From Candidatus Binatia bacterium (lineage in GTDB: Bacteria > Verrucomicrobiota > Verrucomicrobiia > Limisphaerales > UBA8199), in the NCBI GenBank assembly GCA_035566895.1, contig DATMQA010000088.1:1-64000 (forward strand): DNA of 64,000 bases, in the 5' to 3' direction. The translations under genes were made by a program, and so were the position numbers. Numbering within the stretch: the stretch's first letter is position 1; the number at the start of each line of letters is the position of its first letter. Positions 19,058 to 61,376 of the stretch are shown one piece after another. The notes under the pieces are model-generated. The model searched no databases and was not told the origin of the DNA. It saw nothing but the letters and a program-made list of their open reading frames with translations.

Positions 19058-20227
19058 TCAAGCGGCGGTGGGCGGGACGGTCCAGAGGGGCGCGCCGACG
19101 TCCTTTTCGGCTGCGGGGCCGGAGATATAAGGGGACACAAGTCCCGGCAACACTTGAACGTCGAAGATTTCCTCGACCCCTGCGCGGAACTCCAGATGGG
19201 CGGCGATAGCTCCGGTCCGCAAATCGACCACCCAAAGCCCGCAGCGCAGCTTGTCGCGCTCGGCCACGATGGGGACTCCGTCGAGCGTCGGCCGGGCCTT
19301 TGAGAGACCGACAAAGGCATACCCGCCATGAAGGGCCAGGCCGCGTGCAACGCCCGGCACGGCGACCACAGTGGTGACCTGGCCGGTCCGGGGGTCGGCC
19401 ACGGCCAAGTGACCCTGGCCGGTGTGGAGAAAAAAGATTTGGTTGCCTTCCACCCGTGGGGAGTGAGGGAGGGACAGCCCGCGGGCCACCACGCGGCCGC
19501 TGGGGACCTCGATGAGACAGCCGCCGTTGCCCTTGACAGCGCGCCAGCCGGAGGGCGCGTCGGTTTCCGCCAGGGCGGTGACGTAGCGGGGTTGCCCGTT
19601 GATCACGGCTAGACCGTTCAGATGGCAGCGGTCTTCGGGCCGCAGGGCGGATATGAACGGCGGCCGCCAGCGCGGCGCGAAACTGTAATGTGGATGCAGC
19701 GCGGACAGGCAGGAGAAGAGCGTATTGACGAGCCAGAACTCGCTGCTCCCGGCGCGCGCCCCGCCCCCAGCCCCCTCGACCCAGGCTGCTTCGTGCGCCT
19801 GGATGTCATCGGTGAAGTGGGAGGTGCGCGCCAGAAAACAGGCGTCGTGTTGTCCCGGGTGCTGCAACTTGGCGGCGACATCCGGCACGTTCCGCAGGAA
19901 CCACACTTCCTTGCGCGTGCAGACGGCGATGGTTCCGTGCCTGACGGCGATGCCCATGGCGCGCTCGAATTGGTTAAACGTCAGCGTGAGCCGGCCTTTC
20001 CGGGCCGACACAACCACCAGGTGGCCGGTCTGGTAGGTGGAGATCAGGACCGACAGACGCCGTTGCGTGAGGAGCGCGGGGAGACTGTCCGAGTGGGAAC
20101 AGCGGATGTCGCGATATTCCTGGACCGGTTCAGAAGCTTGAGCGGTCACGGGCGCTCCTGGTTGAATCGGCCAACTCGTTCCGGTGCTGAATTGAACTAA
20201 ACACTCCCCGGGGTCGGGTGTTTCCAT
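19058..20227 (-). CDS. Conserved hypothetical protein (TIGR03032-like, predicted beta-propeller fold)
   Basis: 389-aa ORF with strong GC3 bias. Family assignment is by recollection only. Confidence 0.55.
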   Translation of the reverse strand: METPDPGECLVQFSTGTSWPIQPGAPVTAQASEPVQEYRDIRCSHSDSLPALLTQRRLSVLISTYQTGHLVVVSARKGRLTLTFNQFERAMGIAVRHGTIAVCTRKEVWFLRNVPDVAAKLQHPGQHDACFLARTSHFTDDIQAHEAAWVEGAGGGARAGSSEFWLVNTLFSCLSALHPHYSFAPRWRPPFISALRPEDRCHLNGLAVINGQPRYVTALAETDAPSGWRAVKGNGGCLIEVPSGRVVARGLSLPHSPRVEGNQIFFLHTGQGHLAVADPRTGQVTTVVAVPGVARGLALHGGYAFVGLSKARPTLDGVPIVAERDKLRCGLWVVDLRTGAIAAHLEFRAGVEEIFDVQVLPGLVSPYISGPAAEKDVGAPLWTVPPTAA

Positions 20228-21549
20228 GGCGTGCGATACGTGCGTGCCAGCCGGCCATTGGCTTCGTCGTCGCCCGCAATTTTTCCCGCCTCAGCGTCCC
20301 AGCGCAAACTGCGGCCTAACTCCATGGAAACGTTGGCGAGGATGCAGCAAGCGGTTGAGATATAGCCTTCTTCAATATCCGCAACCGGGCGTTGGCCGGA
20401 TTTGCGGGCCTGGACAAAGTTCAAGAGGTTCCGCCGGTTTGCCGGCGCGGCAAACAACTCGGTTTCTTTGTGCTCGACGTCTTCCGGATATTTCTCGCGT
20501 TCCTCCACCGCTTTGACCCTCTCGGGCGAGCCGCCATCGTTTGGAATGTAGTCGTACGACCAGACACTGAGCTTCAAAGTGCCTTTCTCCCCGTAGTAGG
20601 TCACCCCCCAGGGGTAGTCCGGTTCCGGGTTCCGGCCCCAATTGCGCTGGTTCCAAACGACCTGGACATCGCCATAATCGAAAAGCGCCGTCTGCGTGTC
20701 GTGCACGTTCAGGCTCGAGTGGCGGTCCCGCATCAAAATGCCGCCGGTCGAAGAAATGCTCCTGGGCCAGCGGAGCTCGAGGAACATTCGCGTCACATCG
20801 AACAGGTGAACGCCCAGGTCACCGGTTTGGCCGTTGCTGAATTCGCGCGCATCACGCCAACTGCGTGGATGGATGCCCGGGTTGTAATCACGCCACGTCG
20901 CCGGCCCGACATACATCTCCCAATCCAGCGTGGAGGGAGGCGCGGTCGGCGCGGGGAAACTTTTTCTGCCGCCGTAATAGCTGTGGATATCCACATAGGC
21001 GATCTTTCCGAGTTTGCCGCTCTTGATGTAGCGATCTCGCGCTTCAAGAATATGGGGAGTGCTGCGCCGTTCCAATCCCACCTGGACTGTGCGGTTATAT
21101 TTTCGCGCCGCGGCAACCATCGCCTGGCCTTCGACGACGTCATAGCTGATCGGCTTTTGGACATAGACATCCGCTCCCGCCTTGACGGCATCGATCATCG
21201 GCAGGCAATGCCAGTGGTCGGGCGTGCCGATCAGCACGATTTCCGGCCGCTGGTCCGCCAGCAATTTGCGGTAGTCGCCAAACACCGGTGGCTTCTTTTT
21301 GGATGGTTGGCGCCTGGCGACCAACTCCGCCGCGGCTTCCACCATTTTACGGTCCACATCGCACAGGCCGACGACTTCGATTGGCGCAACCTGGATTAGA
21401 TGAAACAGATCGGTCTTTCCATACCACCCACAGCCGATCAGTGCGACGCGCAAAGGCTTTTCCTCCTCGGCGGCGAAGAGGCTTGTTTTCGCCGCCGCCA
21501 AAGCCAGCGCCCCGGCTCCGCTTGTTTTCAAGAAACTCCGTCTGGTCAT
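20197..21549 (-). CDS. Gfo/Idh/MocA family oxidoreductase with TAT signal
   Basis: MTRRSFLKTSGAGALALAAA twin-arginine signal. Rossmann motif 'LRVALIGCGWYG'. Confidence 0.9.
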   Translation of the reverse strand: MTRRSFLKTSGAGALALAAAKTSLFAAEEEKPLRVALIGCGWYGKTDLFHLIQVAPIEVVGLCDVDRKMVEAAAELVARRQPSKKKPPVFGDYRKLLADQRPEIVLIGTPDHWHCLPMIDAVKAGADVYVQKPISYDVVEGQAMVAAARKYNRTVQVGLERRSTPHILEARDRYIKSGKLGKIAYVDIHSYYGGRKSFPAPTAPPSTLDWEMYVGPATWRDYNPGIHPRSWRDAREFSNGQTGDLGVHLFDVTRMFLELRWPRSISSTGGILMRDRHSSLNVHDTQTALFDYGDVQVVWNQRNWGRNPEPDYPWGVTYYGEKGTLKLSVWSYDYIPNDGGSPERVKAVEEREKYPEDVEHKETELFAAPANRRNLLNFVQARKSGQRPVADIEEGYISTACCILANVSMELGRSLRWDAEAGKIAGDDEANGRLARTYRTPWKHPTPGSV

Positions 21550-21699
21550 GTGTCAGCTCTTTCGTTTTGTTTTCGCAATGTTCGCTCCGAGACGGTCTCC
21601 CGGCAACGCCAAATGCGCATCGGGCGAGAAGGGATTCGGGTGTCACGTGGTCAGAGTGAAATGGCATGGAAACATCTCCCGAAAAAAAATTTAGTGTTA

Positions 21700-22215
21700 A
21701 GAAATGTTAAGGAGTGTTAAGAAGTGCTAAGGCCGCGATAGCGGGATGGGGTGGACGGGGCGGCGGCGAGGAGCGGGAAGGTGGCACGGGGAGCTGGGCT
21801 TCATGTTTGCTTGTACGGTTTTCTGTTTTCCGGGCCGCTCGCTGTTGGCGACAGTGGCCTCTACTATGTATTGTGCGACAAAGGTTGTCTGACGGCGGAC
21901 ATGTTTGCTGGTACGAATTTCTGTTTTCGGGGCCGGCCGCAGTTGGCGACACTGCCCTCTACTATATATGGCGCGACGAAAGTAGTCTGACGGCGGACAT
22001 CGGAGCGCCAAGATTGTAGCAGCCGACGCCAGGAGGCTTTGATCTCTCGGCCAATGGACAAAGGATCAGAGCCTCCTGGCGTCTGGCTGCTACGGCAGGG
22101 GGTTAGTTGGCTTTTCCTTCCGGCAGGCGGAGCAGCGGACGAGTGGACTTGGTGAACGCGGAACCGCACCGGACCGAGGCGCGGCAAGGAGATGTGGGGC
22201 CGGTGTGGCGCAGGA
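21700..22215. repeat. Copy A of a ~0.5 kb segmental direct repeat (contains two ~100-bp tandem units at about 21795-22003 and an 80-nt hairpin at 22010-22095)
   Basis: Long blocks are near-identical to 23025-23693 (read by eye). Contains an internal tandem duplication of a ~100-bp unit. Confidence 0.8.
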
Positions 22216-23024: not shown

Positions 23025-23693
23025 TCAAAAAAGCTTAGAAACCGCTAAAAAGGTTAAAGCTGATGGCGGCTTAATGGATGGGGGCGGCGGCGGGCAGAGC
23101 GGCGAGGCTGCGGCGAGGGAGTGTGGGTGCCCGGGGTGGTATGGAGGGTTGGGCTTTCATCTTTGCTGATACGAATTTCTATCTTCGGGGCTGGCCGCGG
23201 TTGGCGACACTGCCCTCTACTTTATATGGCGCGACGATAGTAGTCTGACGGCGGACAGGGCCGCCGGGATGATATTATCTGCCCAGACTGGAGCACGTTT
23301 TTTATCAGGCCGACGCGGTGGTGCATTGGGAGATGAGCGTTGCTCACCGCGATACCGGCTGGCTCACGCGGACGTTTCATTGCCCTTTTCGTGAGATATG
23401 GTGCACACGGGCGCGCGCTGCACGAAGAGCAAGGACCCGGCCGCATCAATGGTGCGGCGTCCGATCAAAAGGACCATCGAAGCGCCAAGATCGTAGCAGC
23501 CGACGCCAGGAGGCTCTGATCATTTGTTCGATTGACCGAGAGATCAGAGCCTCCTGGCGTCGGCTGCGACGGGAGGGGGGTGGTTGGCTTTTCCTTCCGG
23601 CAGACGGAGCAGGAGGCGAGTGGACCTGGTGAACGCGGAACCGGACCGGGCCGAGGTGCGGCAAGGAGATGTGGGGCCGGGGTGGTTACCGGA
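23025..23693. repeat. Copy B of the segmental direct repeat (one ~100-bp unit, a ~210-bp unique insert, and a perfect-stem hairpin at 23493-23570); it ends exactly at the ggt stop codon
   Basis: Matches 21700-22215. The hairpin GTAGCAGCCGACGCCAGGAGGCTCTGATC-N20-GATCAGAGCCTCCTGGCGTCGGCTGCGAC has a 23-bp perfect core. Confidence 0.8.
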
Positions 23694-25620: not shown

Positions 25621-25697
25621 TTGGTCCCAATGGCGCGTCCGGCAGGACTTGAACCTGCAACCTTCTGATCCGAAGTCAGAAGCTCTATCCAATTGAG
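25621..25697 (-). tRNA. tRNA-Arg (anticodon TCG)
   Basis: Reverse complement GCGTCCGTAGCTCAATTGGATAGAGCTTCTGACTTCGGATCAGAAGGTTGCAGGTTCAAGTCCTGCCGGACGCGCCA folds as a cloverleaf with anticodon loop CTTCGGA. CCA is encoded. Confidence 0.9.
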
Positions 25698-26178
25698 CTA
25701 CGGACGCACGATTGTCGTTGAATGCTACGCTATCCTGACCAAGCACGAAGTCAACGCTGCATCGTTTCGGAGGCGTGACCAGTGACAAGTGGCGAGTGAG
25801 AGGCTTCTCGCTCGCGCGGTGCTTCTCCCTAAGTGCCTCGCGCCGGGAAGGTTGTACCTGGCTTTCTTGACAACCCGGCGAGTTATGGGATTGGTGGTAC
25901 AGCAGTTGAAGCAGCCTAAGTTGGCTTTCCTTCCTGAAGGCCAATGCGGGGGACCCAAAGTCCTCGAACAGGTGTTTGGGGAAGGGGCGAAAGGCCGCGG
26001 GTAACCGCGGTTAAGGTCACTTCCTGGACCGAGCCCGTCAGCTAACCTCGCCGGCAATGGGAAGGGCGATCCTCTAGGGTCCCGCTCGGGCGGGTTCCCA
26101 CGTTCACCCAGTCAAGAAAGCGCGCTGCGCCTTGCGCGGCGATACCGCAGCGGTGTGCAGCCACATCGGAGAATCGGT

Positions 26179-28026
26179 ATGAATACAATGATTCTATTTG
26201 GAACACTCGGGCCCGTGGAACTCGGGCTGGCGGTAATCGTGATGCTGGGTTTGCTATCGATCGGACCGCTGGTGCTCGGCGCGGTATTAATCCGCGAGCG
26301 CCAGGTCGGGATCGTGGTGAAGAAGTTTGGCGGCCGGGGGTTACCGCCGGGGCGATTGGTTGCCCTGGCCGGCGAATCCGGCTACCAGGCCGACACCCTC
26401 GCGCCGGGCCTGCACTTCGGATATTTCCGGTGGCAATACCGGATTCTGAAGATGCCGGTGACGGTCGTGTCGCAAGGCGAGATCGCGCTGGTGGTGGCCG
26501 CTGATGGGGCTTCGATTCCATCGGAACGCATCCTGGGCAAAGTGGTCGATTGCGACAACTTCCAGGACGCGCGGAAGTTCCTGGTCAACGGCGGCGAGAA
26601 AGGGCGCCAATTGGGCGTCCTCACCGCGGGCACGTACCGGATCAACCGGGCGTTGTTCACGGTGATCACCTCGGACACGGCGCAGGACCACGGCATGCTG
26701 GGCTCGCAACTGCGGTTGCACCAGATCGAGCCGGACATGGTGGGGATTGTGACCGCCATGGACGGCCAGCCGATTGAGGCCGGCGAAATCGCAGGGCCGG
26801 TGATTGCCGGCCACCAAAACTTCCAGAACACGCAAGCGTTTCTGGACGGCGGCGGCCGGCGCGGATTGCAGGACCAAATCCTGTTGTCCGGCACCTGGAA
26901 CCTCAATCCGTGGTTCGTGCAGGTCGAGCAGGTGCCGATGGTGCAGATCCCGATCGGCTACGTCGGCGTCGTCATCTCGTATGTGGGCAAAGCCCACGTC
27001 GATGTGAGCGGCATCGAGTTCAAGCACGGCGACCTGGTCGAGACCGGCCACAAAGGTGTGTGGGTGACCCCGCTTTACCCGGGGAAGCATCCGATCAACA
27101 CCCGCGTGATGAAAGTCGAGCTGGTACCGACGACCAACATCGTGCTCAACTGGGCGGCCCGCACCGAGACGCATAAGTACGACGAGAAACTCTCGTCCAT
27201 CACGGTGCGGTCGAAGGACGGGTTCGCCTTCAGCCTGGACGTGTCGCAGATCATCCACGTCGGCGCGTTGGACGCGCCGAAGGTGATCTCGCGCGTCGGC
27301 TCGATGCAAAACCTGGTCGATCACGTCTTGCAGCCGATTGTGGGAAATTACTTCCGCAATTCGGCGCAGGACTACACGGTGCTCGACTTCCTCGGGGCGC
27401 GCAGCCAGCGCCAGGTGGAAGCGGCCGAGCACATCCGGGCGGCGTTGTCCGCCTATGATGTGCAGGCCATCGACACGCTGATCGGCGACATCAATCCGCC
27501 GGCGCAACTGATGCAAACGCAGACGGACCGGAAAATCGCCGAAGAACAGCGCAAAACCTACGAGGTACAGGAAGCGGCGCAGGTGCAGCGCCAGCAACTC
27601 GTGCGACAGACCTCGCTGGCGGATATCCAGCATGAGGTGGTCGGCGCCGAGCAAGGCGTGAGCATCGCCGAACTGCACGCGAACGCGCAGGTGAAACAGG
27701 CGACCGGTGAAGCCGAGTCAGTGCGCTTACGGGCGCACGGCGAGGCGGAGGCCATTCGGGCCACCGGCCAGGCCAAGGCCGAGGCCTACCGGGCCGGCGT
27801 TGAAGCGCTGGGCCCGCAGGCCTACACGACGATGCAGCTCATGCAAATCGTCGGCGACCGACAGGTACGGATCGTGCCGGACGTTGCCGTCAACGGCGCC
27901 AACGCGAGTCCTGGTCTCGTGGACGGGCTGCTCGGACTGATGGTCCGCAGCCAGGCCAACGGGGAAGGGCGCAGCGCGAAGGCCGAAGTGCCAGGCGCCG
28001 AAGCGGTGCTGCCGCGCGCGAACTAA
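26179..28026 (+). CDS. Flotillin / SPFH (band-7) domain membrane protein (YqiK-like)
   Basis: N-terminal TM helix, SPFH core, and a long Ala/Glu/Gln-rich coiled coil (EAEAIRATGQAKAEAYRAGVEALG). Confidence 0.85.
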   Translation: MNTMILFGTLGPVELGLAVIVMLGLLSIGPLVLGAVLIRERQVGIVVKKFGGRGLPPGRLVALAGESGYQADTLAPGLHFGYFRWQYRILKMPVTVVSQGEIALVVAADGASIPSERILGKVVDCDNFQDARKFLVNGGEKGRQLGVLTAGTYRINRALFTVITSDTAQDHGMLGSQLRLHQIEPDMVGIVTAMDGQPIEAGEIAGPVIAGHQNFQNTQAFLDGGGRRGLQDQILLSGTWNLNPWFVQVEQVPMVQIPIGYVGVVISYVGKAHVDVSGIEFKHGDLVETGHKGVWVTPLYPGKHPINTRVMKVELVPTTNIVLNWAARTETHKYDEKLSSITVRSKDGFAFSLDVSQIIHVGALDAPKVISRVGSMQNLVDHVLQPIVGNYFRNSAQDYTVLDFLGARSQRQVEAAEHIRAALSAYDVQAIDTLIGDINPPAQLMQTQTDRKIAEEQRKTYEVQEAAQVQRQQLVRQTSLADIQHEVVGAEQGVSIAELHANAQVKQATGEAESVRLRAHGEAEAIRATGQAKAEAYRAGVEALGPQAYTTMQLMQIVGDRQVRIVPDVAVNGANASPGLVDGLLGLMVRSQANGEGRSAKAEVPGAEAVLPRAN

Positions 28027-29236: not shown

Positions 29237-29294
29237 GTAGTAATCAGTAATCAGTAATCAGCAATCAGTAGTCACTAATCAGTAGTCAGTAATG
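29237..29294. repeat. Heptanucleotide tandem repeat (GTAATCA)x8 with point variants
   Basis: gtagtaatcagtaatcagtaatcagcaatcagtagtcactaatcagtagtcagtaatga; lies immediately upstream (promoter side) of the 28092..29225 gene. Confidence 0.85.
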
Positions 29295-29331: not shown

Positions 29332-30015
29332 CTATTTAATGCTTCCGACGAGCGCGGCGCGGTCGCGCAACTCGGCCAACCCCGCTTCGAGTTCGGCGCG
29401 CGGCAAGTTGCCGGCCGCAAGGCTCGAGTCACTTTGCCCCTGAAGCCGCCGATAGAACGAGAGGCCGAAATCCACCAGGCCCGGATGCCCAGGCTCGGCT
29501 TCCAGCATCCCAAAGAGCGCGTCCTCCGCTTTGGCGAATTGCCCGGTGCGCTCATAATGCTGCATCAGCAGTCCATGTGTCGGGAGCGGTAGCGGCGCCT
29601 CGCCCAAAGACGCTACGAAGCTTTCGACTTTGGGGACGAAATCCGGAAAATCGGAAACCTCGCCCTGGGCAAGGATATTGAGCAAGAGATTCAGCCCTTT
29701 CAAGTAGCAAGCGCGGCTTTCGTGCTCTCGGTTTTGTGCGGCGGCGATATCGCCGGCCTCTTTGAGCAAGGTGGTGAGCAGGAGCGTTTTTTGCCGTACC
29801 GCCTGTGTGGGTTCGCCCTGGATAAGCCTGGCCAGAAGTTCCGTCTCGCTGAGTTGGACCACTGCCTTGGCTCCCTGGCCCATCAGCCGCTGAAATTCCT
29901 CATCCACCGTCCCGGCCGCCTCTTGCCAGTGCTGGCCTTGCTTGAGCGATTTGATGCGGGATAGCGCCTGGAAAAACTCTTCGATCATCCGCAGGATGTA
30001 ATCGCGCCGAATCAT
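29332..30015 (-). CDS. Hypothetical helical protein
   Basis: 227-aa ORF with ATG start and good GC3 bias. No recognised motif. Confidence 0.6.
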   Translation of the reverse strand: MIRRDYILRMIEEFFQALSRIKSLKQGQHWQEAAGTVDEEFQRLMGQGAKAVVQLSETELLARLIQGEPTQAVRQKTLLLTTLLKEAGDIAAAQNREHESRACYLKGLNLLLNILAQGEVSDFPDFVPKVESFVASLGEAPLPLPTHGLLMQHYERTGQFAKAEDALFGMLEAEPGHPGLVDFGLSFYRRLQGQSDSSLAAGNLPRAELEAGLAELRDRAALVGSIK

Positions 30016-30037: not shown

Positions 30038-30135
30038 AAGAGTTAAATGGGTCAAAAGAGTTAACTGAGTTAAATGAGGGACACGGCTTTTGAGAACCCA
30101 CAAGAAATTTGCGCATGCTGCGCAAACTTTGAAGG
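30038..30135. repeat. Intergenic element, copy A: 9-10-bp GAGTTAAAT/GTTAAAAGG-type tandem units plus conserved tail containing palindrome TTTGCGCA-TGC-TGCGCAAA
   Basis: Shares unit and tail with 31166-31250 and 31993-32105. Confidence 0.75.
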
Positions 30136-30175
30136 AAGCAGTACGAAGAACGGCTGACGAGAAAGCGAAATTCCT

Positions 30176-31075
30176 TCATCGGTGCCCGCCGCCGTGTCCA
30201 CCACCGAATCCGCCGCCCCTGGCACCACCGCTGAATCCGCCTCTGAATCCGCCACCGAAACTCCGAGTGCCGCCGAAGGCGCTGCTGCGGGTGGCCATCA
30301 TGCCTGGGCGGCTGCCGAAACTGCGGGCCGGAGCGAACGGGGCGGAAGACCTGGCGGCGAAGGAGGTTCGAGGAAACCCTCCGAAAGGACGCGAGGCGAA
30401 CCGCTGGTTTGGACCACCAAAGCGGTGGTGGAAATCAAAATCGCGATCAAAACGGCGGCGGCCGAAATCGAAATCACGGAAATGCCGATGTCCGAAGAAG
30501 TCGAAGCTGGCAAAGAAAGGCGAGTAGAATCCCCACGGGTAGCCGTAATTGTACCACCAGTAGCTGGAGTAGTAAGGATAAGCGTATGGATAGGCCGGGT
30601 ATCCGTAATCTACATACCCAGGCTCGATGCCATAATCATAGGGGTAAGCGGGGGCTTGAGGGTAAGCGTAATTGGGAGTTTGGGGATAAGGATAAACCGG
30701 GGCGGTCGGAACGCCGTTACCCTGACCGGCTCGCACCTCACCGCCGCGCTGCAACATGGCGGCCAGGACATCATCAGGAACACCCCGCTCTTTCAGCGCG
30801 ATAATTTCCGAGGCGGTCGGATTATAGGCGACGGTCGAGTTTTTGATGTAGGCCTTGATGACGTCGGTGCCTACCCTGGCGTCCACCATCTTCAGAATCT
30901 CGGCGGCTCCTGGGGAATACCTGACCGTAGAGACAGTTGGTGTGGTGGTTTGGGCGGCCGGCGCGTCTACCGTTGTCAATGCGCCAGCCGGCAGCACGAA
31001 CGTCGCGCCTGTAAACACCCCAAAGGTCATCAACCCTCCGGCCAAGCGCCCCTTCATTCGCTTCAAGATTCTCAT
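30176..31075 (-). CDS. Secreted low-complexity protein (two ~30-aa 'EIIALKERGVPDDVLAAMLQ'-like modules, then Tyr/Pro-rich and Gly/Arg/Phe-rich tail)
   Basis: Signal peptide. Strong GC3 bias despite low complexity. Confidence 0.7.
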   Translation of the reverse strand: MRILKRMKGRLAGGLMTFGVFTGATFVLPAGALTTVDAPAAQTTTPTVSTVRYSPGAAEILKMVDARVGTDVIKAYIKNSTVAYNPTASEIIALKERGVPDDVLAAMLQRGGEVRAGQGNGVPTAPVYPYPQTPNYAYPQAPAYPYDYGIEPGYVDYGYPAYPYAYPYYSSYWWYNYGYPWGFYSPFFASFDFFGHRHFRDFDFGRRRFDRDFDFHHRFGGPNQRFASRPFGGFPRTSFAARSSAPFAPARSFGSRPGMMATRSSAFGGTRSFGGGFRGGFSGGARGGGFGGGHGGGHR

Positions 31076-31165
31076 AGCGGCTCCTGGTTAAACTGTACGG
31101 AGTACCATTGTCCTTTTGCGCCAGTTGTCAAGTGCTGGGTGGCTCCGGAGCTGACGCTGCAACCA

Positions 31166-31250
31166 ATGAGTTAAATGGGCTAACTGAGTTAAATGAGGAA
31201 CACGGCACCGGCCCGTTTGCGGATGTTGCTGCGCCCGCAGGGCGCTCTTC
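31166..31250. repeat. Intergenic element, copy B (GAGTTAAATGGGCTAACTGAGTTAAATGAGGAACACGGC...)
   Basis: About 90% identical to copy A over the array. Overlaps the annotated 5' end of ORF 31193..31957, so the true start is probably downstream. Confidence 0.7.
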
Positions 31251-31957
31251 GGCGTTGCGCGAGGGGTGAAAACCGGATTATTAGGGCACGAGTGAATTAC
31301 ACGATACGCGGCGCTGACGGGACCCCGAAGCTCGAGACCGACTGGCACGACCCATTCTGGAGCCAGGCCGAAACCCTGGAGATAAGCCACTTTCTCCCCG
31401 AAAGCAGCTCGCATCATCCGCGGACTCAGGTGCGCCTGCTGTATGACGAACGCGGCATACGCGGCATTTTCCAGGTTCACGATCAGTATGTGCGGTGCGT
31501 GCGAACCAATTACTTCGACGAAGTGTGGAAGGACAGTTGCGTGGAGTTTTTTGCCGAGCCGCAGCCTGACCGCGGCTATTTCAATTTCGAGTTCAACTGC
31601 GGCGGGGCGTTTCTCTGCTGTCACATCCTCGACCCGGAGCGGGTGCCCGGCGGATTCAGAGAATTCACCAAAGTGCCGGCCAGCCTTGGCGGACAGATCA
31701 AGGTCTGCTCCTCACTTCCCAGCCGCATCGAGGCGGAAATCGCAGATCCCGTGGTGTGGACGCTGCGTTTTTCCATACCTTTCGCGTTCTTCGAACACTA
31801 CCTCGGTCCACTGGGGGACACAAAGGGTCAGGTCTGGCGCGGGAATTTCTTCAAATGTGCCGAGGAGATTTCACATCCTCATTGGGCGGCCTGGGCGCCA
31901 GTGGACAAATTCGATTTCCATCGGCCCGAGTGCTTCGGGACGCTGCGGTTTGTTTAA
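31193..31957 (+). CDS. Hypothetical protein (possibly carbohydrate-binding/DOMON-like; true start likely near 31290, GTG)
   Basis: Good coding signal from about 31290 onward (WHDPFWSQAETLEISHF...). The upstream 30 codons overlap a repeat element. Confidence 0.55.
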   Translation: MRNTAPARLRMLLRPQGALRRCARGENRIIRARVNYTIRGADGTPKLETDWHDPFWSQAETLEISHFLPESSSHHPRTQVRLLYDERGIRGIFQVHDQYVRCVRTNYFDEVWKDSCVEFFAEPQPDRGYFNFEFNCGGAFLCCHILDPERVPGGFREFTKVPASLGGQIKVCSSLPSRIEAEIADPVVWTLRFSIPFAFFEHYLGPLGDTKGQVWRGNFFKCAEEISHPHWAAWAPVDKFDFHRPECFGTLRFV

Positions 31958-31992
31958 CCACGGATGAACACAGCGCGGCAAAGCCGCAACCA

Positions 31993-32105
31993 AAGAGTTA
32001 AAAAGGTTAAAAAGGTTAGAAAAGTTAAATGGGTTAAAAGAGTTAGATCCGGGACGCACGTTTGCGCACGCACAAGAAGTTTGATAAAGCTGCGCAAACT
32101 AAAAG
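31993..32105. repeat. Intergenic element, copy C (AGTTAAAAAGGTTAAAAAGGTTAGAAAAGTTAAATGGGTTAAAAGAGTTAGATCC plus tail with TTTGCGCA...TGCGCAAACT)
   Basis: Same unit and tail as copies A and B. Confidence 0.75.
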
Positions 32106-32169
32106 TGACGCAGAAGCGCTTTTCTGCCTTTTTGATTCTCCTATCTCCCGTCTCTCGAGATTCGGCCTG

Positions 32170-32913
32170 CTACTTGCTCGCATCCGGGGCGGGCGCCTGC
32201 TTTTGCTGGACCGGCCACTCGAAGCTGAGTTTGACCGGGTCGCCGGTACTGAGTAAACCGATTAACACTGGCGCTTCCACTTTGAAGTCGCTCATCTTGA
32301 GAGTAATGGAACCCGAAATCTTGAGCTTTTTATCCCCCAGGGGCAATACGTTGACCGGCATGGAAATGGAATTGGTGACGCCAGCGACGGCCAATTCGCC
32401 TTTGGAATCGAACACATAAGGCAGGTCTTTGCTCCGGGGCGACTCTTTGAGCACGAGCTCGATTGAGTGATAGGTGATGCGCGGGTTGGCAGCGCTTTTC
32501 ATCTTGTCATACATCACCTCGTCCATCTTGTCGCTGTAATGGGAGCCGTCTTTTTCAACGCTCTTGAGCCCCCGCACGGGAATGTAAGCTTTCACTTCGG
32601 CCTGGACTTTGCCGGGCGTGGCTGCCTGGCCGGGTTCGGTGGGAAAACCGGGCCCGACTTCGATGGACCCGCCGATGATATGGCCCTCGACCTGCCAATC
32701 GTGAATGGTAGAAGTGCCTTCGATGCGCACCTTCATGTCCGGACCCGACTTTGCATCGAAACGCGTTAAGCCAGCCGCGACGACGGGTGGAGGATTGGTT
32801 TTTTCAAGGTCGGCCAGCGAAGGCTCCTCGTGCTTCGGAGGTTTCGCGCAACCCGCCGCAAGTGCCAGTACGAAGATGGCCATGGCTGCCCTGCCGACCC
32901 TCTGAAATTCCAT
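32170..32913 (-). CDS. YceI-like family lipoprotein (paralog 1)
   Basis: Start at ATG 32913 (MEFQRVGRAAMAIFVLALAAGC lipobox). YceI-like beta-barrel pattern. About 85% identical to the adjacent paralog. Confidence 0.8.
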   Translation of the reverse strand: MEFQRVGRAAMAIFVLALAAGCAKPPKHEEPSLADLEKTNPPPVVAAGLTRFDAKSGPDMKVRIEGTSTIHDWQVEGHIIGGSIEVGPGFPTEPGQAATPGKVQAEVKAYIPVRGLKSVEKDGSHYSDKMDEVMYDKMKSAANPRITYHSIELVLKESPRSKDLPYVFDSKGELAVAGVTNSISMPVNVLPLGDKKLKISGSITLKMSDFKVEAPVLIGLLSTGDPVKLSFEWPVQQKQAPAPDASK

Positions 32914-32990: not shown

Positions 32991-33668
32991 TTATTTGCTG
33001 GCGTCCGCGGCAGGCGCCTGCTTCTGCTGGACCGGCCACTCGAAGCTGAGTTTGACGGGGTCGCCGGTGCTCAAAATTCCGATCAGCACGGGCGCTTCCA
33101 CCTTGAAATCGCTCATCTTGAGAGTAGTGGAACCGGAAATCTTCAGCTTTTTATCCCCCAGGGGCAATACGTTGACCGGCATGGAAATGGTATTGGTGAC
33201 TCCGGCTACGGCCAGTTCGCCCTTGGAATCAAACACGTAAGGCAGATCCTTGCTCTTCGGCGCCTCTTTAAGCACAAGTTCGGTCGAATGATAAGTGATG
33301 CGCGGGTTGGCAGCGCTTTTCATCTTGTCGTACATCACCTCGTCCATCTTGTCGCTGTAATGGGAGCCGTCTTTTTCGACGCTCTTGAGCACCCGCACCG
33401 GAATGTAGGCCTTTACTTCGGCCTGGACCTTGCCGGGCGTGACGGTCTGGCCCGGCTCCGTGGGAAAACCCGGCCCCACTTCGATGGACCCGCCGATGAT
33501 GTGGCCCTCGACCTGCCAATCGTGAATGGTAGAAGTGCCTTCGATGCGCACCTTCATGTCCGGACCCGACTTCGCGTCGAAACGTGTCGTCGGCTCGGCG
33601 GCCCGCGACAGAGAGGCCAGGGCAAGACCCAGGACGATTTGGCCAGCGAGTAAATTTCGTGTTTTCAT
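32991..33668 (-). CDS. YceI-like family protein (paralog 2, signal peptide)
   Basis: MKTRNLLAGQIVLGLALASLSRA signal peptide. Tandem duplicate of 32170..32913. Confidence 0.8.
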   Translation of the reverse strand: MKTRNLLAGQIVLGLALASLSRAAEPTTRFDAKSGPDMKVRIEGTSTIHDWQVEGHIIGGSIEVGPGFPTEPGQTVTPGKVQAEVKAYIPVRVLKSVEKDGSHYSDKMDEVMYDKMKSAANPRITYHSTELVLKEAPKSKDLPYVFDSKGELAVAGVTNTISMPVNVLPLGDKKLKISGSTTLKMSDFKVEAPVLIGILSTGDPVKLSFEWPVQQKQAPAADASK

Positions 33669-33755
33669 ATTCCTAATTTTCGAGTTGCGCAGCCGCTTGA
33701 GCTGCAATTTTGATTTTTAGACCCAACCGCCAGAAAGATGCGATCCGAATTTCGC

Positions 33756-38191: not shown

Positions 38192-38224
38192 AGCATACAT
38201 CGATACGCCGGCCTGCGGACTGAC

Positions 38225-38347
38225 GCGCGAAGCGTTTGGAGTGCGTGCGCTCTGCGCCGCTTTGTTATGTTCGAGCTGAGTGGTTACATTTAGCTGCTCG
38301 AGAGTCCGAGAACGGCGCAGAGCGCACGCACTCCAAACGCTTCGCGC
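38225..38347. repeat. Perfect 35-bp inverted repeat (stem) with 53-nt loop, followed by T-rich tract
   Basis: Left arm GCGCGAAGCGTTTGGAGTGCGTGCGCTCTGCGCCG (38225-38259). Exact reverse complement at 38313-38347. Confidence 0.9.
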
Positions 38348-38425
38348 CTCTCGTTCAATGATTTTGCGCTTTTTTCTGTAACAATTGCCCCCTCTCCTGC
38401 GTATTACCTGCAGGGTCATCGTGTT

Positions 38426-39652: not shown

Positions 39653-39678
39653 GGCGGATGATGGATGGTGGATGATGG

Positions 39679-41112
39679 ATGATGAACACGGGCAATAACA
39701 TTGATTCCTCTGCACTCCCTCTCGATGCCGCGGCTGCACCTATCGACTCCTTGTCGCCCGCCATCGAGCCTCCATCATCCATCATCTACCATCCACCATC
39801 CTCCGCCGCTCTGCGGCGGCTCCGTCGCGCGTTGCTCTTCCCGGTAAAACTCTTTTGGGGAATGATCTTCTGCCAGGGATTGCTCGGAAGCATTTTCGTG
39901 GTCGGCTGGAGCTACCGCCTGGCGCAACGATTCGCCCTGAAATACTGGTGGTCGCACAGTTCACGCGCGCAGCCGAACACCACGTTCGCCGATTTTCTGG
40001 CCGGCAGCGAGCGGACCAGAGACCACCGCCACTGGCCTAATTGGTTCCTCCAGCAGGATTTCGCCGAGGCGCTCCGCCGGCAGCCTGGCGTGAGCGCGGG
40101 AAGGTATGTTTTTTCAGTGGTACGGGCGTTTACCCACGGCCTGTGGTTGAATTTCTGGATGGGGTTGCGCGCCATCGCCAATACCTGGGCGCTGACGCTA
40201 CCTGCCTGTATTTTCTGGTGGTTCGGCTGGTATGACGGCTGGAACAATTCGTTTAACAAAGGCTACGAGCAGGCCGCAGTGGGCCCGCTGGTTTCTTTGC
40301 TGGGCATCCTGTTGTTCATCGCGGCTATGTTTTATGTCCCGCTCGCCCAAGCCCGCCAGGCCGTCACCGGCGATTGGCGCGCGTTCTTTGAGTTCCGGCT
40401 GGTCTGGAATTTAGCGCGCTTGCGCTGGGTCTCGTGCGTGGGCTTGGCGCTGCTTTATTCTCTGCTGGCGCTTCCGCTCAATATCCTGAAAACCTCGCCC
40501 ATGTTCTGGATGCAAAAACATCCGGAGCTGGTTTATGTTTCCGACGCGCTGCTTCTCAAGATGCTCAACGACTATTTCTTTTGGTGCGCCCTGCTGATGT
40601 TGCCGGCCTATGTGCTGCTGCGTGTGCTCGCGGCCCGGGTTTATGCCTCAGCCATAATGGCCTCGGTCCAATCCGGCAATATTCAGCCCGCCGCGCTCGC
40701 CGTTTATGAACGCGAAACCCTCGACCGTCTGGGACTCCTGGAGACCCGCCCGTCTCGCGAACGCCACGTCTTCGTCCGCTTTCTGGCCTGGACCGGCACG
40801 CGGGTGGGACGCGTGCTCGGCGGCGCGGCGCTGTTCTTTACCTGGTTCGGCTTTGTTGCCCAGATTTACATCGCCGAGTTCTTCAATTACCACGGCGGCC
40901 TAGGCTGGCTGAACCAGCCGCTCGTCCAGCTCCCCTGGTTCCATTACTTGCCGTCGCGGTTGAAAACCCCGCTGGGAGAGGTTTTCTTCGTGCTCCTGGC
41001 CTGGTTCGTTGCCTTGCTGATCTGGTCGGTTTTAAGCACGATTGCCAGAAGCACGAGCAGGCAGGCCAGCACACCGCCGCCAACGAACAGCTTGAACCAG
41101 AGGTCGGTCTGA
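39679..41112 (+). CDS. Polytopic membrane protein of unknown function (low-complexity N-terminus; start uncertain)
   Basis: About 10 hydrophobic helices. The N-terminal 40 codons overlap an imperfect inverted repeat of GATGATGG motifs. Confidence 0.65.
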   Translation: MMNTGNNIDSSALPLDAAAAPIDSLSPAIEPPSSIIYHPPSSAALRRLRRALLFPVKLFWGMIFCQGLLGSIFVVGWSYRLAQRFALKYWWSHSSRAQPNTTFADFLAGSERTRDHRHWPNWFLQQDFAEALRRQPGVSAGRYVFSVVRAFTHGLWLNFWMGLRAIANTWALTLPACIFWWFGWYDGWNNSFNKGYEQAAVGPLVSLLGILLFIAAMFYVPLAQARQAVTGDWRAFFEFRLVWNLARLRWVSCVGLALLYSLLALPLNILKTSPMFWMQKHPELVYVSDALLLKMLNDYFFWCALLMLPAYVLLRVLAARVYASAIMASVQSGNIQPAALAVYERETLDRLGLLETRPSRERHVFVRFLAWTGTRVGRVLGGAALFFTWFGFVAQIYIAEFFNYHGGLGWLNQPLVQLPWFHYLPSRLKTPLGEVFFVLLAWFVALLIWSVLSTIARSTSRQASTPPPTNSLNQRSV

Positions 41113-47015: not shown

Positions 47016-47278
47016 TTTCTCAAACTAGCGGAAACGACAAGGCGGTGCAATGACCAGAATCGACACGATGGAATACCGTGTTAAAATTGCTCTAATCAAT
47101 ACTTAAAGATGCCAGAAAATTTGAGCCTCCTTGCGTCGGCTGCTACGATGGGAATGATTCCTTGCGCGCTCTTAGACCTGGGGCGTGCATGAGAACCGCG
47201 TGGATGATGCGTGAAACCACTCGAATAATTTCACGCATCACGCATCACTCATCACCACCCCATCACGCATCAGTACCG

Positions 47279-48430: not shown

Positions 48431-48440
48431 CTTCTTTCTC

Positions 48441-55554: not shown

Positions 55555-55640
55555 TGGTGGTAGGTGATGGATTCGAACCATCGAAGGCGTGAGCCAGCAG
55601 ATTTACAGTCTGCCCCCGTTGGCCACTTGGGTAACCTACC
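55555..55640 (-). tRNA. tRNA-Tyr (anticodon GTA), type II long variable arm
   Basis: Reverse complement GGTAGGTTACCCAAGTGGCCAACGGGGGCAGACTGTAAATCTGCTGGCTCACGCCTTCGATGGTTCGAATCCATCACCTACCACCA. Anticodon loop CTGTAAA. T-loop TTCGAAT. Confidence 0.9.
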
Positions 55641-55995
55641 GCCGGGTAGTGGATAGTTGCCAGTGGATAGTGAGCAGCCGGAGTTCTCCAGCCTGACGCG
55701 ACCATCAAAGACAACCAGCGCGAGCGGTGAATTTAGCCGAAGCGGTGGGCTTGTCAATGCGGGGGTATCACACTAAACTAGCGGTCAGTCGTGGACGAGG
55801 CGCATGGCGGCTCTCATTGGCACCCCACTTTAGTGGGGTGTCAGAGCCGGGCTGGCCAAGGGAACCGTTTCAACGGTTTCTCGCGGCGCCGCTAAACCGT
55901 TGAAACGGTTTCGCTGACCTCCGCCGATGCGATACACCCCGCTGAAGCGGGGTGTTAATGAGAGTGGGACGGTGAGTCCAGGCCAGGTCTTTTTT

Positions 55996-61022: not shown

Positions 61023-61082
61023 GCAGGAGGTTGGGGCTATGGGGTGTCCGCCCCAGCGCCGCGCGCTTGGGGGCGGCGGAAG

Positions 61083-61232
61083 GCTTAAAAAGGTTAAAAG
61101 GGTTAAAAAGGTTACAAGGTTACAAGAGTTAAAAGAGTTAGAAGGGTTAAACGGGTTAAGAAGGTCAAAGAGGTTACGAGGGTTACAAAGTTACAAGGTT
61201 ACGAGGGTTACAAAGTTACAAGGTTACAAGGG
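61083..61232. repeat. Long tandem array (about 17 units) of 9-bp GGTTA(A/C)AAG-type repeats (same unit family as the 30038/31166/31993 elements)
   Basis: aggcttaaaaaggttaaaagggttaaaaaggttacaaggttacaagagttaaaagagttagaagggttaaacgggttaagaaggtcaaagaggttacgagggttacaaagttacaaggttacgagggttacaaagttacaaggttacaagggtt. Confidence 0.85.
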
Positions 61233-61376
61233 TTCCCTTGGGAAGGGGGAGTCACCAATCGGTCCTTCACCCCATTGAGCAAACCACCCCAAGCGCTCCA
61301 TGTTAGGTTCGGGGGGGCGAGCCTCTGGTTCGTCCCGGCGCGCCAAAAGCCGGAATTAATTACAGTGGACTGGAGG

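What the first reader, a model, noticed from the sequence alone, without database searches (positions are those of the whole stretch)
30038..32105. Family of intergenic elements: variable-length arrays of 9-10-bp GAGTTAAAT / GGTTAAAAG units plus a conserved ~45-bp tail with palindrome TTTGCGCA...TGCGCAAACT
Three copies within 2 kb (30038-30135, 31166-31250, 31993-32105), all in the same orientation and all in intergenic positions. The unit number varies (4, 3 and 6). The tails of copies A and C are about 80% identical (…CACAAGAA-TTTG…GCTGCGCAAACT). The palindrome TTTGCGCA-N3-TGCGCAAA in copy A is an ideal dimeric-regulator operator or hairpin. On the minus-strand transcripts of the flanking genes it would form a GC-core hairpin followed by UUUCUUG, i.e. 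a weak intrinsic terminator. Candidate functions are a MITE-like element, an iteron-type protein-binding array, or a terminator/attenuator cassette.
Basis: seen in the sequence. Interest (0 to 1): 0.55.

Follow-up and report, generated by a model that had tools for sequence, protein, structure and literature searches.

The report
Modular intergenic repeat with 9-bp arrays
The three elements are real copies of an apparently undescribed, non-coding, insertion-type intergenic repeat: two short hairpin modules bracketing a short-unit array that varies in length, also found in many copies in unrelated soil bacteria, with its function and means of spread still unknown.

Summary
Window A (30040-30155), B (31156-31250) and C (31957-32105) are related, all on the + strand and all intergenic. 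They carry 4, 3 and 6 units of 9 bp. A has a perfect TTTGCGCA-TGC-TGCGCAAA palindrome.

The family is not local. The palindrome is the core of an "R module", and C also carries an "L module" (hairpin GCGGC-NNN-GCCGC plus AACCAAAG). In MAGs labelled Binatia, Deltaproteobacteria and Planctomycetota, L lies 95-370 nt 5' of R on the same strand, around a lineage-specific middle. One MAG gave at least 14 exact R hits.

Relatives of the window organism (a Limisphaerales-like verrucomicrobium) at 70-75% protein identity lack A and C at the orthologous sites, so both are lineage-specific insertions. The L hairpin sits 16-75 nt behind the stop codon of a co-directional gene in 22 of 30 cases.

No Rfam family, ORF or printed sequence matches. 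Best reading: a BOX/BIME/MITE-like modular repeat whose array changes by slippage. Terminator, promoter or operator roles are possible side effects but unproven. The mobilising enzyme is unknown.

The parts
30040..30075 (+). Copy A array: GAGTTAAAT GGGTCAAAA GAGTTAACT GAGTTAAAT (4 units of 9 bp). It lies 25-60 nt upstream of the ATG (30015) of the minus-strand DUF6483 gene.
30076..30104 (+). Copy A junction GAGGGACACGGCTTTTGAGAACCCACAAG. It is shared with B (first 12 nt), C and metagenome locus L006.
30105..30127 (+). Copy A R-module core AAATTTGCGCATGCTGCGCAAAC. The perfect 8-3-8 palindrome occupies 30108-30126.
30128..30155 (+). Copy A R-module extension TTTGAAGGAAGCAGTACGAAGAACGGCT, carrying the family's GTAC-GAAG end motif. 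The nhmmer R hit spans 30100-30155 (E=9e-14).
31156..31167 (+). Copy B remnant of the L-module end. The 13-nt match GCTGCAACCAATG (consensus GCCGCAACCAAAG, 2 mismatches) spans 31156-31168 and shares base 31168 with the first array unit.
31168..31194 (+). Copy B array: GAGTTAAAT GGGCTAACT GAGTTAAAT (3 units). The middle unit looks like a fusion of A's units 2 and 3.
31195..31250 (+). Copy B junction GAGGAACACGGC, then a decayed tail (GTTTGCGGATGTTGCTGCGC) and a GC hairpin GCGCCC-GCA-GGGCGC (31231-31245). The R model does not detect it.
31957..31997 (+). Copy C L module ACCACGGATGAACACAGCGCGGCAAAGCCGCAACCAAAGAG, with hairpin GCGGC(31975-79)-AAA-GCCGC(31983-87). It starts on the last base of the CBM9 stop codon (31955-31957). 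Its last 3 nt (31995-31997) are also the first 3 nt of the array.
   Evidence: nhmmer L hit 31952-31997, E=1e-9
31995..32048 (+). Copy C array, 6 units of 9 bp (GAGTTAAAA GGTTAAAAA GGTTAGAAA AGTTAAATG GGTTAAAAG AGTTAGATC). There is no C at all on this strand.
32049..32105 (+). Copy C junction and decayed R module. The R-like core is at 32077-32099 (4 mismatches). Alternative hairpin arms are GTTTGCGCA 32060-32068 and TGCGCAAAC 32091-32099.
32110..32127 (.). Terminator-like hairpin GCAGAAGCGCTTTTCTGC with T runs on both strands, just outside C. It is probably the native bidirectional terminator of the convergent CBM9 and YceI genes.
61079..61234 (+). Solo array D: about 17 units of 8-9 bp (GGTTAAAAA / GGTTACAAG types), with no L or R module. 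It lies upstream of the minus-strand response-regulator gene (60483-61022).
21693..21732 (+). Solo array E: AGTGTTAAGA x4 (10-bp units), about 145 nt upstream of the minus-strand oxidoreductase gene (20197-21549).

Best explanation
A, B and C are copies, in different states of decay, of a modular, non-coding, insertion-type intergenic repeat.

**Architecture of a full copy (C)**
1. An L module: ACCACG..AGCGCGGC-NNN-GCCGCAACCAAAG, a 5-bp GC hairpin with a free loop.
2. A purine-rich, C-free array of 8-10-bp units.
3. An R module: A-tract, TTTGCGCA-NNN-TGCGCAAAC, about 17 nt, then GTAC-GAAG.

A has lost the L module. B keeps only the array, the junction and scraps of both modules.

**Shown**
- L and R bracket a lineage-specific middle in many genomes.
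- Copies are intergenic.
- A and C are missing from orthologous sites in relatives, so they arrived by insertion.

**Inferred**
- The array changes length by slipped-strand mispairing or unequal recombination. B's middle unit looks like a fusion of two A units.
- The element is spread in trans by an unidentified enzyme that reads the nearly invariant module sequences.
- It lands, or is only tolerated, directly behind stop codons in the sense orientation. There its hairpins become part of the 3' UTR. They may secondarily act as a 3'-end barrier, weak terminator or outward promoter, as happens with REP/BIME, BOX and SPRITE elements.
For: **The copies are related**
- Family D5 gives 86% over 42 nt (A and B). 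Family D20 gives 74% over 53 nt (A and C).

**The family is dispersed**
- The tail pattern found related copies in other gene contexts in metagenomes. L006 has a GTTACAT-type array, GGACACGGC and the tail. The L004 group has L, an A-rich middle and R. L008 has R only.
- The R core found 41 genome loci. At least 14 come from one MAG, 5, 2, 3 and 2 from four others, and about a dozen are chance or unrelated single hits.

**L and R belong together**
- L lies 95-370 nt 5' of R on the same strand in almost every multi-copy locus.
- Fourteen copies from one MAG align over about 220 nt with sharp borders.
- The L module keeps its stem while the loop varies (ATA, AAA, GTA, ACA, TAC and others).

**Insertion**
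- The convergent CBM9/YceI spacer is 42-46 nt in relatives at about 70% identity, against 212 nt here.
- The spacer before DUF6483 has no array or palindrome in relatives at 75% identity. The closest relative (81%) keeps only the GTAC and AAAGCCGTGCCCC flanks, around a different hairpin and with no array.

**Position bias**
- The gene on the L side is co-directional in 22 of 30 cases (binomial p=0.016). Its stop lies 16-75 nt before the hairpin.

**Not coding, not a known RNA**
- The frame through the palindrome is closed 0-11 codons upstream in most copies.
- Rfam gives nothing, at gathering thresholds or at E-values up to 10.

**Array composition**
- Arrays are 66-75% purine, 0-8% C and 25-37% GC, in a genome of about 60% GC.
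Against: - No terminal inverted repeats were seen between the L and R ends, and no clear target-site duplication.
- No transposase recurs next to the copies. The recurrent neighbours are ordinary NMT1 and solute-binding proteins and amidohydrolases.
- Within this 64-kb window the L and R modules occur only inside the 2-kb cluster. For this genome, local duplication cannot be separated from transposition.
- Four other metagenome contigs carry A or part of B, all with arrays 100% identical to the window's. L001 differs at a few flank bases, including one in the R core. No array-length polymorphism was observed.
- The near-identity of the module cores across phyla would also fit a conserved host function.
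- The gene calls behind the position bias come from my own crude codon-usage caller.
Confidence: 0.6

Rival explanations
1. Terminator or 3'-end cassette as the primary function. The R hairpin (and the L hairpin) would end or stabilise transcripts, and the elements would be kept for that reason.
For: - The R hairpin folds at -11.6 to -15.8 kcal/mol with a z-score down to -3.2. On the minus strand it is followed by UUUCUUG (A) or UUUUUCU (MAG copies).
- A lies 49 nt, and C's R-like core about 70 nt, after the stops of minus-strand genes.
- The L hairpin sits 16-75 nt after co-directional stop codons in 22 of 30 cases.
Against: - Genes on the R side point toward it in only 13 of 30 cases, or 14 of 33 when counted from R.
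- The U tract on the + strand is poor (CUUUGA, CGUUCAAC).
- The L hairpin is followed by AACCAAAGGAG, not by U.
- Relatives manage with 42-46-nt spacers lacking the element.
- C already has a separate terminator-like hairpin at 32110-32127.
- Ordinary terminators are not conserved in sequence across phyla.
Confidence: 0.15
2. The R module is an outward-facing sigma-70-type promoter carried by the element. It would comprise an A-tract, -35 TTGCGC, a 17-nt spacer, -10 AAnnAT and a start near AGTAGTAC. This would make the family a 'mobile promoter'.
For: - In 45 distinct R copies, the hexamer 17 nt after TTGCGC has A at position 2 and T at position 6 in 24. Spacers of 14-16, 18 and 19 nt give 0.
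- The left arm (A-tract plus TTGCGC) is almost invariant, while the right arm, which would be the spacer, drifts.
- In L004 the module lies 75 nt upstream of gcvP in the right orientation.
Against: - The same test also peaks at a 20-nt spacer (26 of 45). The signal is therefore partly just the conserved ATAGT.
- The -35 matches TTGACA at only 3 of 6 positions.
- Window A reads AAGGAA at the -10 place.
- The downstream gene is co-directional in only 17 of 30 to 19 of 33 cases.
- In A and C a transcript would run antisense into the 3' end of a convergent gene.
- The copies share descent, so the counts are not independent.
Confidence: 0.1
3. Operator plus binding array. A dimeric regulator would bind TTTGCGCA-N3-TGCGCAAA, and a second protein would bind the 9-bp units cooperatively (iteron or ribbon-helix-helix style).
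For: - The stem sequence is conserved while the central 3 nt vary (AGC, TGC, ACC, GGC, GCG). This is the pattern expected for a sequence-specific dimer site.
- Four of the five arrays lie 5' of minus-strand genes.
Against: - The elements are absent from orthologous promoters in relatives.
- They are found between convergent genes (C, L006, L008 and 5 MAG copies).
- Neighbouring genes have no common function.
- Unit sequences differ between lineages (GTTAAAW, GTTACAT, CACGAAGG, CGCAAAGG).
- Of the 12 R copies not selected by my search pattern, 11 have an imperfect palindrome (5-7 of 8 pairs in 10, and one truncated). There is a single compensating change.
Confidence: 0.07
4. The element is a small RNA gene or a 3'-UTR-derived regulatory RNA. 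The L hairpin would be its 5' end and the R hairpin its 3' end, with the purine-rich array as the working part.
For: - It sits in the sense orientation directly behind ORFs.
- Two stable hairpins bracket an unstructured purine-rich tract containing SD-like AAAGGAG.
Against: - No Rfam match.
- Whole-element folds are not better than shuffles (z from -0.7 to -2.1, and positive for B).
- The middle is not conserved between lineages, so no common target-pairing region exists.
- There is essentially no covariation.
Confidence: 0.06
5. Purely local duplication or chance similarity, with no family.
For: In the window, the L and R modules occur only between 30040 and 32105.
Against: Related copies occur in other gene contexts in metagenomes and in several MAGs, many per genome.
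Confidence: 0.02

Closest known systems
BOX elements of Streptococcus pneumoniae (boxA-(boxB)n-boxC; PMC3049150)
   Same: - Composite architecture: two conserved end modules around a tandem array whose unit number varies between copies.
- Under 200-640 bp, non-coding and intergenic.
- Enriched downstream of coding sequences, with orientation following the coding strand.
- Often clustered with other repeats.
- Other streptococci carry variants with different end modules around the same array.
   Different: - boxB is about 45 nt, against 8-10 nt here.
- BOX has terminal inverted repeats and target-site duplications. Neither was found here.
- BOX is confined to streptococci. The L and R cores here are shared by MAGs labelled as three phyla.
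- The middle here can be replaced wholesale by REP-like hairpins or A-rich DNA.
REP / BIME / REPIN elements mobilised by RAYT (IS200/IS605-type Y1 transposases). Basis: established knowledge.
   Same: - Extragenic, high-copy, hairpin-based and mosaic with other motifs (BIME).
- Found at gene 3' ends and between convergent genes.
- Stems conserved in sequence, with variable loops.
- The L hairpin is preceded by a YAG tetranucleotide (CTAG, GTAG, ATAG, CAG), reminiscent of the GTAG head.
- The MAG copies contain bona fide GTAG-plus-palindrome units.
   Different: - The L stem is only 5 bp.
- L and R are unlike each other and are not arranged as inverted doublets.
- The head tetranucleotide is not fixed.
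- No RAYT gene could be looked for.
- The window has a separate, more typical REPIN-like family (22016-22083, 23492-23571).
MITEs, including Correia/NEMIS elements. Basis: established knowledge.
   Same: Small, non-autonomous, AT-rich relative to the genome, with insertion polymorphism between relatives. They may carry promoters or terminators that affect neighbouring genes.
   Different: No terminal inverted repeats, no demonstrable target-site duplication, and no matching autonomous IS.
SPRITE (pneumococcal Rho-independent-terminator-like element; PMC3049150)
   Same: A repeat whose hairpin resembles a terminator and which accumulates close to the 3' ends of coding sequences.
   Different: SPRITE is a single 18-bp duplex with a long U tract. 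Here there are two short hairpins, a poor U tract and an internal array.
STRR, the short tandemly repeated heptamer arrays of heterocystous cyanobacteria. Basis: established knowledge.
   Same: Short-unit (7-10 bp) tandem arrays confined to intergenic DNA, with several unit sequences per genome and function unknown. The window and the MAG loci also hold many heptamer arrays.
   Different: A different phylum. STRR are not described as bracketed by conserved hairpin modules.
Integron attC sites. Basis: established knowledge.
   Same: Conserved ends around a middle that varies in length and sequence, placed directly after the stop codon of a co-directional ORF.
   Different: The attC ends are inverted repeats of each other (RYYYAAC ... 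GTTRRRY) and fold together, whereas L and R are not complementary. The neighbours here are ordinary chromosomal genes, not cassette arrays.

Membership tests
BOX-type composite repeat | Two conserved terminal modules flanking a tandem array with a variable unit number | tested here: met
   L and R modules bracket arrays of 3-9 units (window A, B, C and L006).
BOX-type composite repeat | Terminal inverted repeats and target-site duplication | tested here: not met
   The L end (ACCACGAAGG..) and the R end (..GTACGAAGG) share a direct, not inverted, ACGAAGG. Flanks compared in 8 copies of one MAG agree only partly. The left flank is conserved across phyla, so it belongs to the element.
BOX-type composite repeat | Sequence homology to boxA, boxB or boxC | not tested
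The unit length (9 nt against about 45 nt, PMC3049150) already differs.
REP/REPIN-RAYT | GTAG (or GGAG) head followed by an imperfect GC-rich palindrome of 20-40 nt | tested here: inconclusive
   L reads [C/G/A]TAG or CAG, then C, then GCGGC-NNN-GCCGC. The stem is only 5 bp and the head is variable.
REP/REPIN-RAYT | Inverted doublets of the same REP (REPIN) | tested here: not met
   L and R differ in sequence and lie in direct order.
REP/REPIN-RAYT | A cognate RAYT gene in the genome | not testable with these tools
   Only 64 kb of this genome is available.
MITE | Terminal inverted repeats matching an autonomous IS, plus target-site duplication | tested here: not met
   No inverted repeats. 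No transposase recurs near the copies.
MITE | Small, non-coding, multi-copy, with presence/absence polymorphism | tested here: met
Intrinsic terminator | GC-rich stem-loop directly followed by a U-rich tract, downstream of a gene on that strand | tested here: inconclusive
   - Met weakly for A on the minus strand (8-10-bp stem, UUUCUUG).
- The consensus scan did not call it.
- There is no orientation rule across the family.
Iteron array (plasmid or phage origin) | Repeats of about 17-22 bp next to a rep gene or origin features | tested here: not met
   Units are 8-10 bp. The neighbours are DUF6483, CBM9 and YceI genes. No plasmid or phage match was found.
Integron attC | Inverse-core and core sites at the two ends that pair with each other | tested here: not met
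   The L and R ends are not complementary.
Any Rfam RNA family | Covariance-model match | tested here: not met
   There was no hit at gathering thresholds. Only chance-level hits (E>2) appeared at E up to 10 in the window region, and none in a MAG copy.

The most novel reading that the evidence does not exclude
The L and R modules could be the recognition ends of a still unrecognised, horizontally spreading mobile system. It would target the first nucleotides after stop codons in the sense orientation, in at least three phyla (Verrucomicrobiota, and MAGs labelled Binatia/Deltaproteobacteria and Planctomycetota). The 8-10-bp arrays, and the solo arrays D and E, would be footprints or slippage products left at its insertion hot spots. 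Alternatively, the modules could be a cross-phylum 3'-UTR signal read by a conserved host factor.
Probability: 0.15. Interest if true: 0.7.

Novelty: new variant of a known kind. Interest (0 to 1): 0.42.

Why it matters
Small interspersed repeats are well studied in a few cultured pathogens and almost not at all in the uncultured soil phyla that dominate metagenomes. This family shows three features together.

- **Modular build:** two hairpin modules bracket a short-unit array that varies in length.
- **Breadth:** the module cores are nearly identical in organisms labelled as different phyla.
- **Placement:** the L module sits tightly, in the sense orientation, just behind stop codons.

If a dedicated enzyme or host factor reads these modules, the family would be a handle on horizontal spread of non-coding DNA, or on 3'-end biology, in Verrucomicrobiota and Binatia. 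Practically, such repeats may fragment assemblies, and their arrays could serve as strain markers. If the family is just another selfish repeat, the finding is ordinary.

Tried and rejected
1. **A small CxxC peptide read through the palindrome (..ICAxCAN..).** Rejected. The frame is closed 0-11 codons upstream in most copies and has no start codon.
2. **A known RNA family.** Rfam gave nothing at gathering thresholds or at E-values up to 10.
3. **Published sequences.** Ten sequence strings from the modules and arrays were searched in full text, with no paper found.
4. **A strict junction pattern** (TAAMWGAGTTARATSMGGRACRCRS) in the genome collection gave 0 hits. It was too narrow.
5. **An autonomous partner.** All-against-all comparison of 266 predicted neighbour proteins found only ordinary paralogue families, with no transposase.
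6. **Plasmid or phage origin.**
   - One 33-nt plasmid match fell in the lineage-specific middle.
   - The R core gave no viral hit.
   - The L core gave one viral contig, which carries a variant copy.
7. **Array-length polymorphism between strains.** Four other metagenome contigs carry arrays identical to the window's.
8. **Target-site duplication.** The ACGAAGG-type flanks on both sides of MAG copies co-vary in only some copies. The left flank is conserved across phyla, so it is part of the element.
9. **Other motif classes.** Sigma-54, MerR-type and ECF-type promoter readings, a dif/Xer site, Hin/hix sites, and mimicry of the sarcin-ricin loop or SRP RNA were considered by eye. All were dropped for wrong spacing or lack of consistent matches.
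10. **Fetching more of the source contig.** This failed because the sample file was too large, and an exact-protein look-up of the CBM9 product found nothing.
Full report
**1. What is in the window**

The window is a soil-metagenome contig with about 60% GC. Its Ffh protein is 90% identical to entries named Limisphaerales and Verrucomicrobiae. The 'Binatia', 'Acidoferrum', 'Bacillota' and 'Paceibacterota' labels that one MAG catalogue gives to near-identical proteins contradict each other. I therefore treat the organism as a Limisphaerales-like verrucomicrobium.

The gene calls of the source contig, reproduced by my own caller, are:
- DUF6483, 29332-30015 (-)
- an unannotated 299-aa protein, 30176-31075 (-)
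- CBM9, 31292-31957 (+)
- YceI, 32170-32883 (-)

Copy A lies between two minus-strand genes, B between divergent genes and C between convergent genes.

**2. The observation**

- The 9-bp arrays are real. Tandem Repeats Finder gives 4.3 copies at 30040-30078 and 6.0 at 31992-32045, and B has three units.
- GAGTTAAAT with at most one mismatch occurs 12 times against 5.5 expected. Eight of these sit in the three arrays.
- A and B share 42 nt at 86%. A and C share a 53-nt tail at 74%.
- The palindrome in A is perfect, at 30108-30126.
- B's tail is not homologous beyond GAGGAACACGGC.
- B's middle unit GGGCTAACT looks like a fusion of A's GGGTCAAAA and GAGTTAACT. This is what unequal pairing between units would leave (inference).
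- Two more arrays of GTTA-type units lie on the same strand without tails: 61079-61234 (about 17 units of 8-9 bp) and 21693-21732.
- All five arrays are 66-75% purine and 0-8% C on the + strand.

**3. The family outside the window**

A metagenome scan with the tail pattern returned seven loci.
- L006 has the full arrangement: a GTTACAT/GTTAAAA array, GCGGACACGGC and ..CACAAGAAATTTGCGCAACCTGCGCAAACTTTGA. It lies between a sulfatase gene and a convergent ThuA gene.
- The L004 group has the same tail. About 95 nt upstream it has GCGGAGCCGCAACCAAAA, which matches the GCGGCAAAGCCGCAACCAAAG just left of window array C.
- L008 has the tail only.

A genome-collection scan with AAATTTGCGC-N4-TGCGCAAAC returned 41 loci. 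At least 14 come from one MAG (SMAG_U4604), and 5, 2, 3 and 2 from four other MAGs. About a dozen are single hits, either inside coding DNA or unrelated.

In the multi-copy MAGs the palindrome is the right-hand module (R) of a longer repeat.
- Its left-hand module (L) ends in GCCGCAACCAAAG and lies 95-370 nt upstream on the same strand.
- Fourteen copies from one MAG align over about 220 nt with sharp borders.
- The middle is lineage-specific. It holds 9-bp arrays such as CACGAAGGT or CGCAAAGGC, GTAG-headed REP-like palindromes, or A-rich DNA.
- The neighbouring genes in these MAGs are NMT1-type and other solute-binding proteins and amidohydrolases.
- The L consensus is ACCAC(G/A)AAGG-N-CC-TAG-C-GCGGC-NNN-GCCGC-AACCAAAG(G)AG, with an invariant stem and a free loop.
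- Window C's L module is closest to the version in the Planctomycetota-labelled MAG (..GATGAAC.CAG.GCGGC).
- One viral contig carries a copy with a different R hairpin but the same GGCAGTAGTAC end.

**4. Insertion, not conservation**

In three relatives whose CBM9 protein is about 70% identical, the synteny CBM9, YceI, GFO/IDH/MocA oxidoreductase (ThuA follows in two of the three) is kept. Their convergent spacer is 42-46 nt with no element, against 212 nt here.

In relatives whose DUF6483 is 75% identical, the upstream gene and DUF6483 are separated by 66-121 nt in the gene calls. That spacer has no array or palindrome.

The closest relative (81%) keeps CTTCGTACTG and AAAAGCCGTGCCCC, the two flanks of A's R region, around a different hairpin and with no array.

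A and C are therefore recent, labile insertions, and the array is an expansion at a fixed point next to GGGACACGGC. Four other metagenome contigs carrying A or part of B have arrays identical to the window's, so no length polymorphism was seen.

**5. Position and orientation**

Using a simple codon-usage gene caller that reproduces the source contig's calls, I scored the genes flanking each module.
- The gene on the L side is co-directional in 22 of 30 cases (p=0.016). Its stop codon then lies 16-75 nt (median 44) before the L hairpin. Because the module starts about 20 nt before the hairpin, it begins 0-50 nt after the stop.
- In window C the module starts on the last base of the TAA.
- The gene on the R side shows no bias (17 against 13).
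- Convergent and co-directional spacers are preferred, and divergent ones are rare. This is the pattern reported for BOX, RUP and SPRITE (PMC3049150).
- Window A and B are in the minority orientation.

**6. What the modules could do**

*Hairpin stability.* The R hairpin is stable, at -11.6 to -15.8 kcal/mol, and on the minus strand a short U-rich run follows it.

*Arm conservation.* Twelve R copies were found by profile search rather than by my exact pattern.
- The left arm and its A-tract are nearly invariant: TTTGCGCA in 10 of the 12.
- The right arm drifts (CGCGAAAA, TGAGCAAA, TCAGAAAA), with pairing of 5-7 out of 8 and one compensating change.
- This weakens both a strict RNA-hairpin reading and a symmetric-operator reading. 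The conserved feature is a directional sequence.

*Promoter reading.* A promoter reading fits that asymmetry: an A-tract, TTGCGC, 17 nt, then AAnnAT. At a 17-nt spacer, 24 of 45 copies have A at position 2 and T at position 6 of the hexamer, while spacers of 14-16, 18 and 19 nt give none. However:
- a second peak appears at a 20-nt spacer;
- the -35 match is weak;
- A itself reads AAGGAA at the -10 place;
- there is no downstream-gene bias.

*Other readings.* Whole-element folds are no better than shuffled sequence. No ORF survives. No Rfam family matches.

**7. Verdict**

It is a modular interspersed repeat of the BOX/BIME/MITE kind, with an 8-10-bp expandable array between two hairpin modules.

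What is unusual is that the module cores are shared by MAGs labelled as different phyla, and that the L module sits tightly behind stop codons.

It fails the strict tests for BOX, MITE, REPIN and attC membership: there are no terminal inverted repeats, no inverted doublets and no complementary ends. How it moves, and whether the host uses it, remain open. I found no description of it in Rfam or in sequence-string searches of the literature, which is weak evidence of novelty.

Noticed in passing
window 22016-22083, 23492-23571, 47123-47149: A separate REPIN-like family with a GTAG head (CGTAGCAGCCGACGCCAGGAGGCTCTGATC). Two copies are inverted doublets (30-nt arms, 97% complementary, 20 nt apart) and one is single. 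This suggests the genome has a REP/RAYT-type system.
   Followed up: partly
window 29239-29293, 39656-39684 and 39771-39804, 47231-47272, 48411-48434, 55647-55672: Tandem heptamer arrays, each with its own unit: AGTAATC x8, GGATGAT x4 with an inverted partner about 90 nt away, TCACGCA x6, TTCCATC, TAGTGGA. Most are intergenic. By my crude gene calls, 39771-39804 and 48411-48434 lie inside coding sequence. Similar unique heptamer arrays occur in the unrelated MAG loci (CGAGGAT x7 in L015, CTCGATC x10.6 in L033), and TCACGCA recurs in L006. They resemble cyanobacterial STRR arrays.
   Followed up: partly
window 21802-22000 and 23158-23257: A 98-bp unit repeated twice in tandem, with a third copy 1.2 kb away (85-92% identity). 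It lies in the divergent region next to small RCC1-type genes.
   Followed up: no
window 38222-38350: A long intergenic hairpin with 55-nt arms, 84% complementary, and a 19-nt loop.
   Followed up: no
window 25903-26071 (+): A c-di-AMP (ydaO-type) riboswitch, 57 bits, upstream of the Band_7 gene at 26155-28026. tRNA genes lie at 25634-25707 (-) and 55558-55640 (-).
   Followed up: no
window 32170-32883 and 32991-33707: Tandem YceI paralogues, 86% identical over 300 nt (family D4). Relatives have one or two YceI genes at this place.
   Followed up: no
proteins P0001, P0035, P0107, P0121, P0126: NCBI organism labels from one soil MAG catalogue (Binatia, Bacillota, Paceibacterota, Acidoferrum) are attached to proteins 68-100% identical to each other. 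Independent entries say Limisphaerales or Verrucomicrobiae. Those labels look unreliable.
   Followed up: partly
L011 7629-7690 (-), L018 96-151, L031 261-299, L038 4911-4966, L046 2364-2409 (-): A second R-module subfamily, AAATTTGCGCAAGCCGCGAAAAC, whose palindrome is imperfect. It is also paired with L modules in the same MAGs.
   Followed up: partly
L059 443-737: In the closest relative (DUF6483 81% identical), CBM9 and DUF6483 are divergent neighbours and the 299-aa gene is missing. The TTGACAA..GGACAAT.GTAC promoter-like stretch stands before the 299-aa gene in the window (about 31100-31140, minus strand). In L059 it stands directly before DUF6483.
   Followed up: no
L007 and L009, about 900-1000: A tail-like motif (ACAAGAAATTTGTGCTTTCTGCGCAAAA) lies upstream of a minus-strand tRNA gene in two digester-metagenome contigs. 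On that strand TTGTCT-N17-TACGAT fits a tRNA promoter. This is probably a chance match to the search pattern.
   Followed up: no
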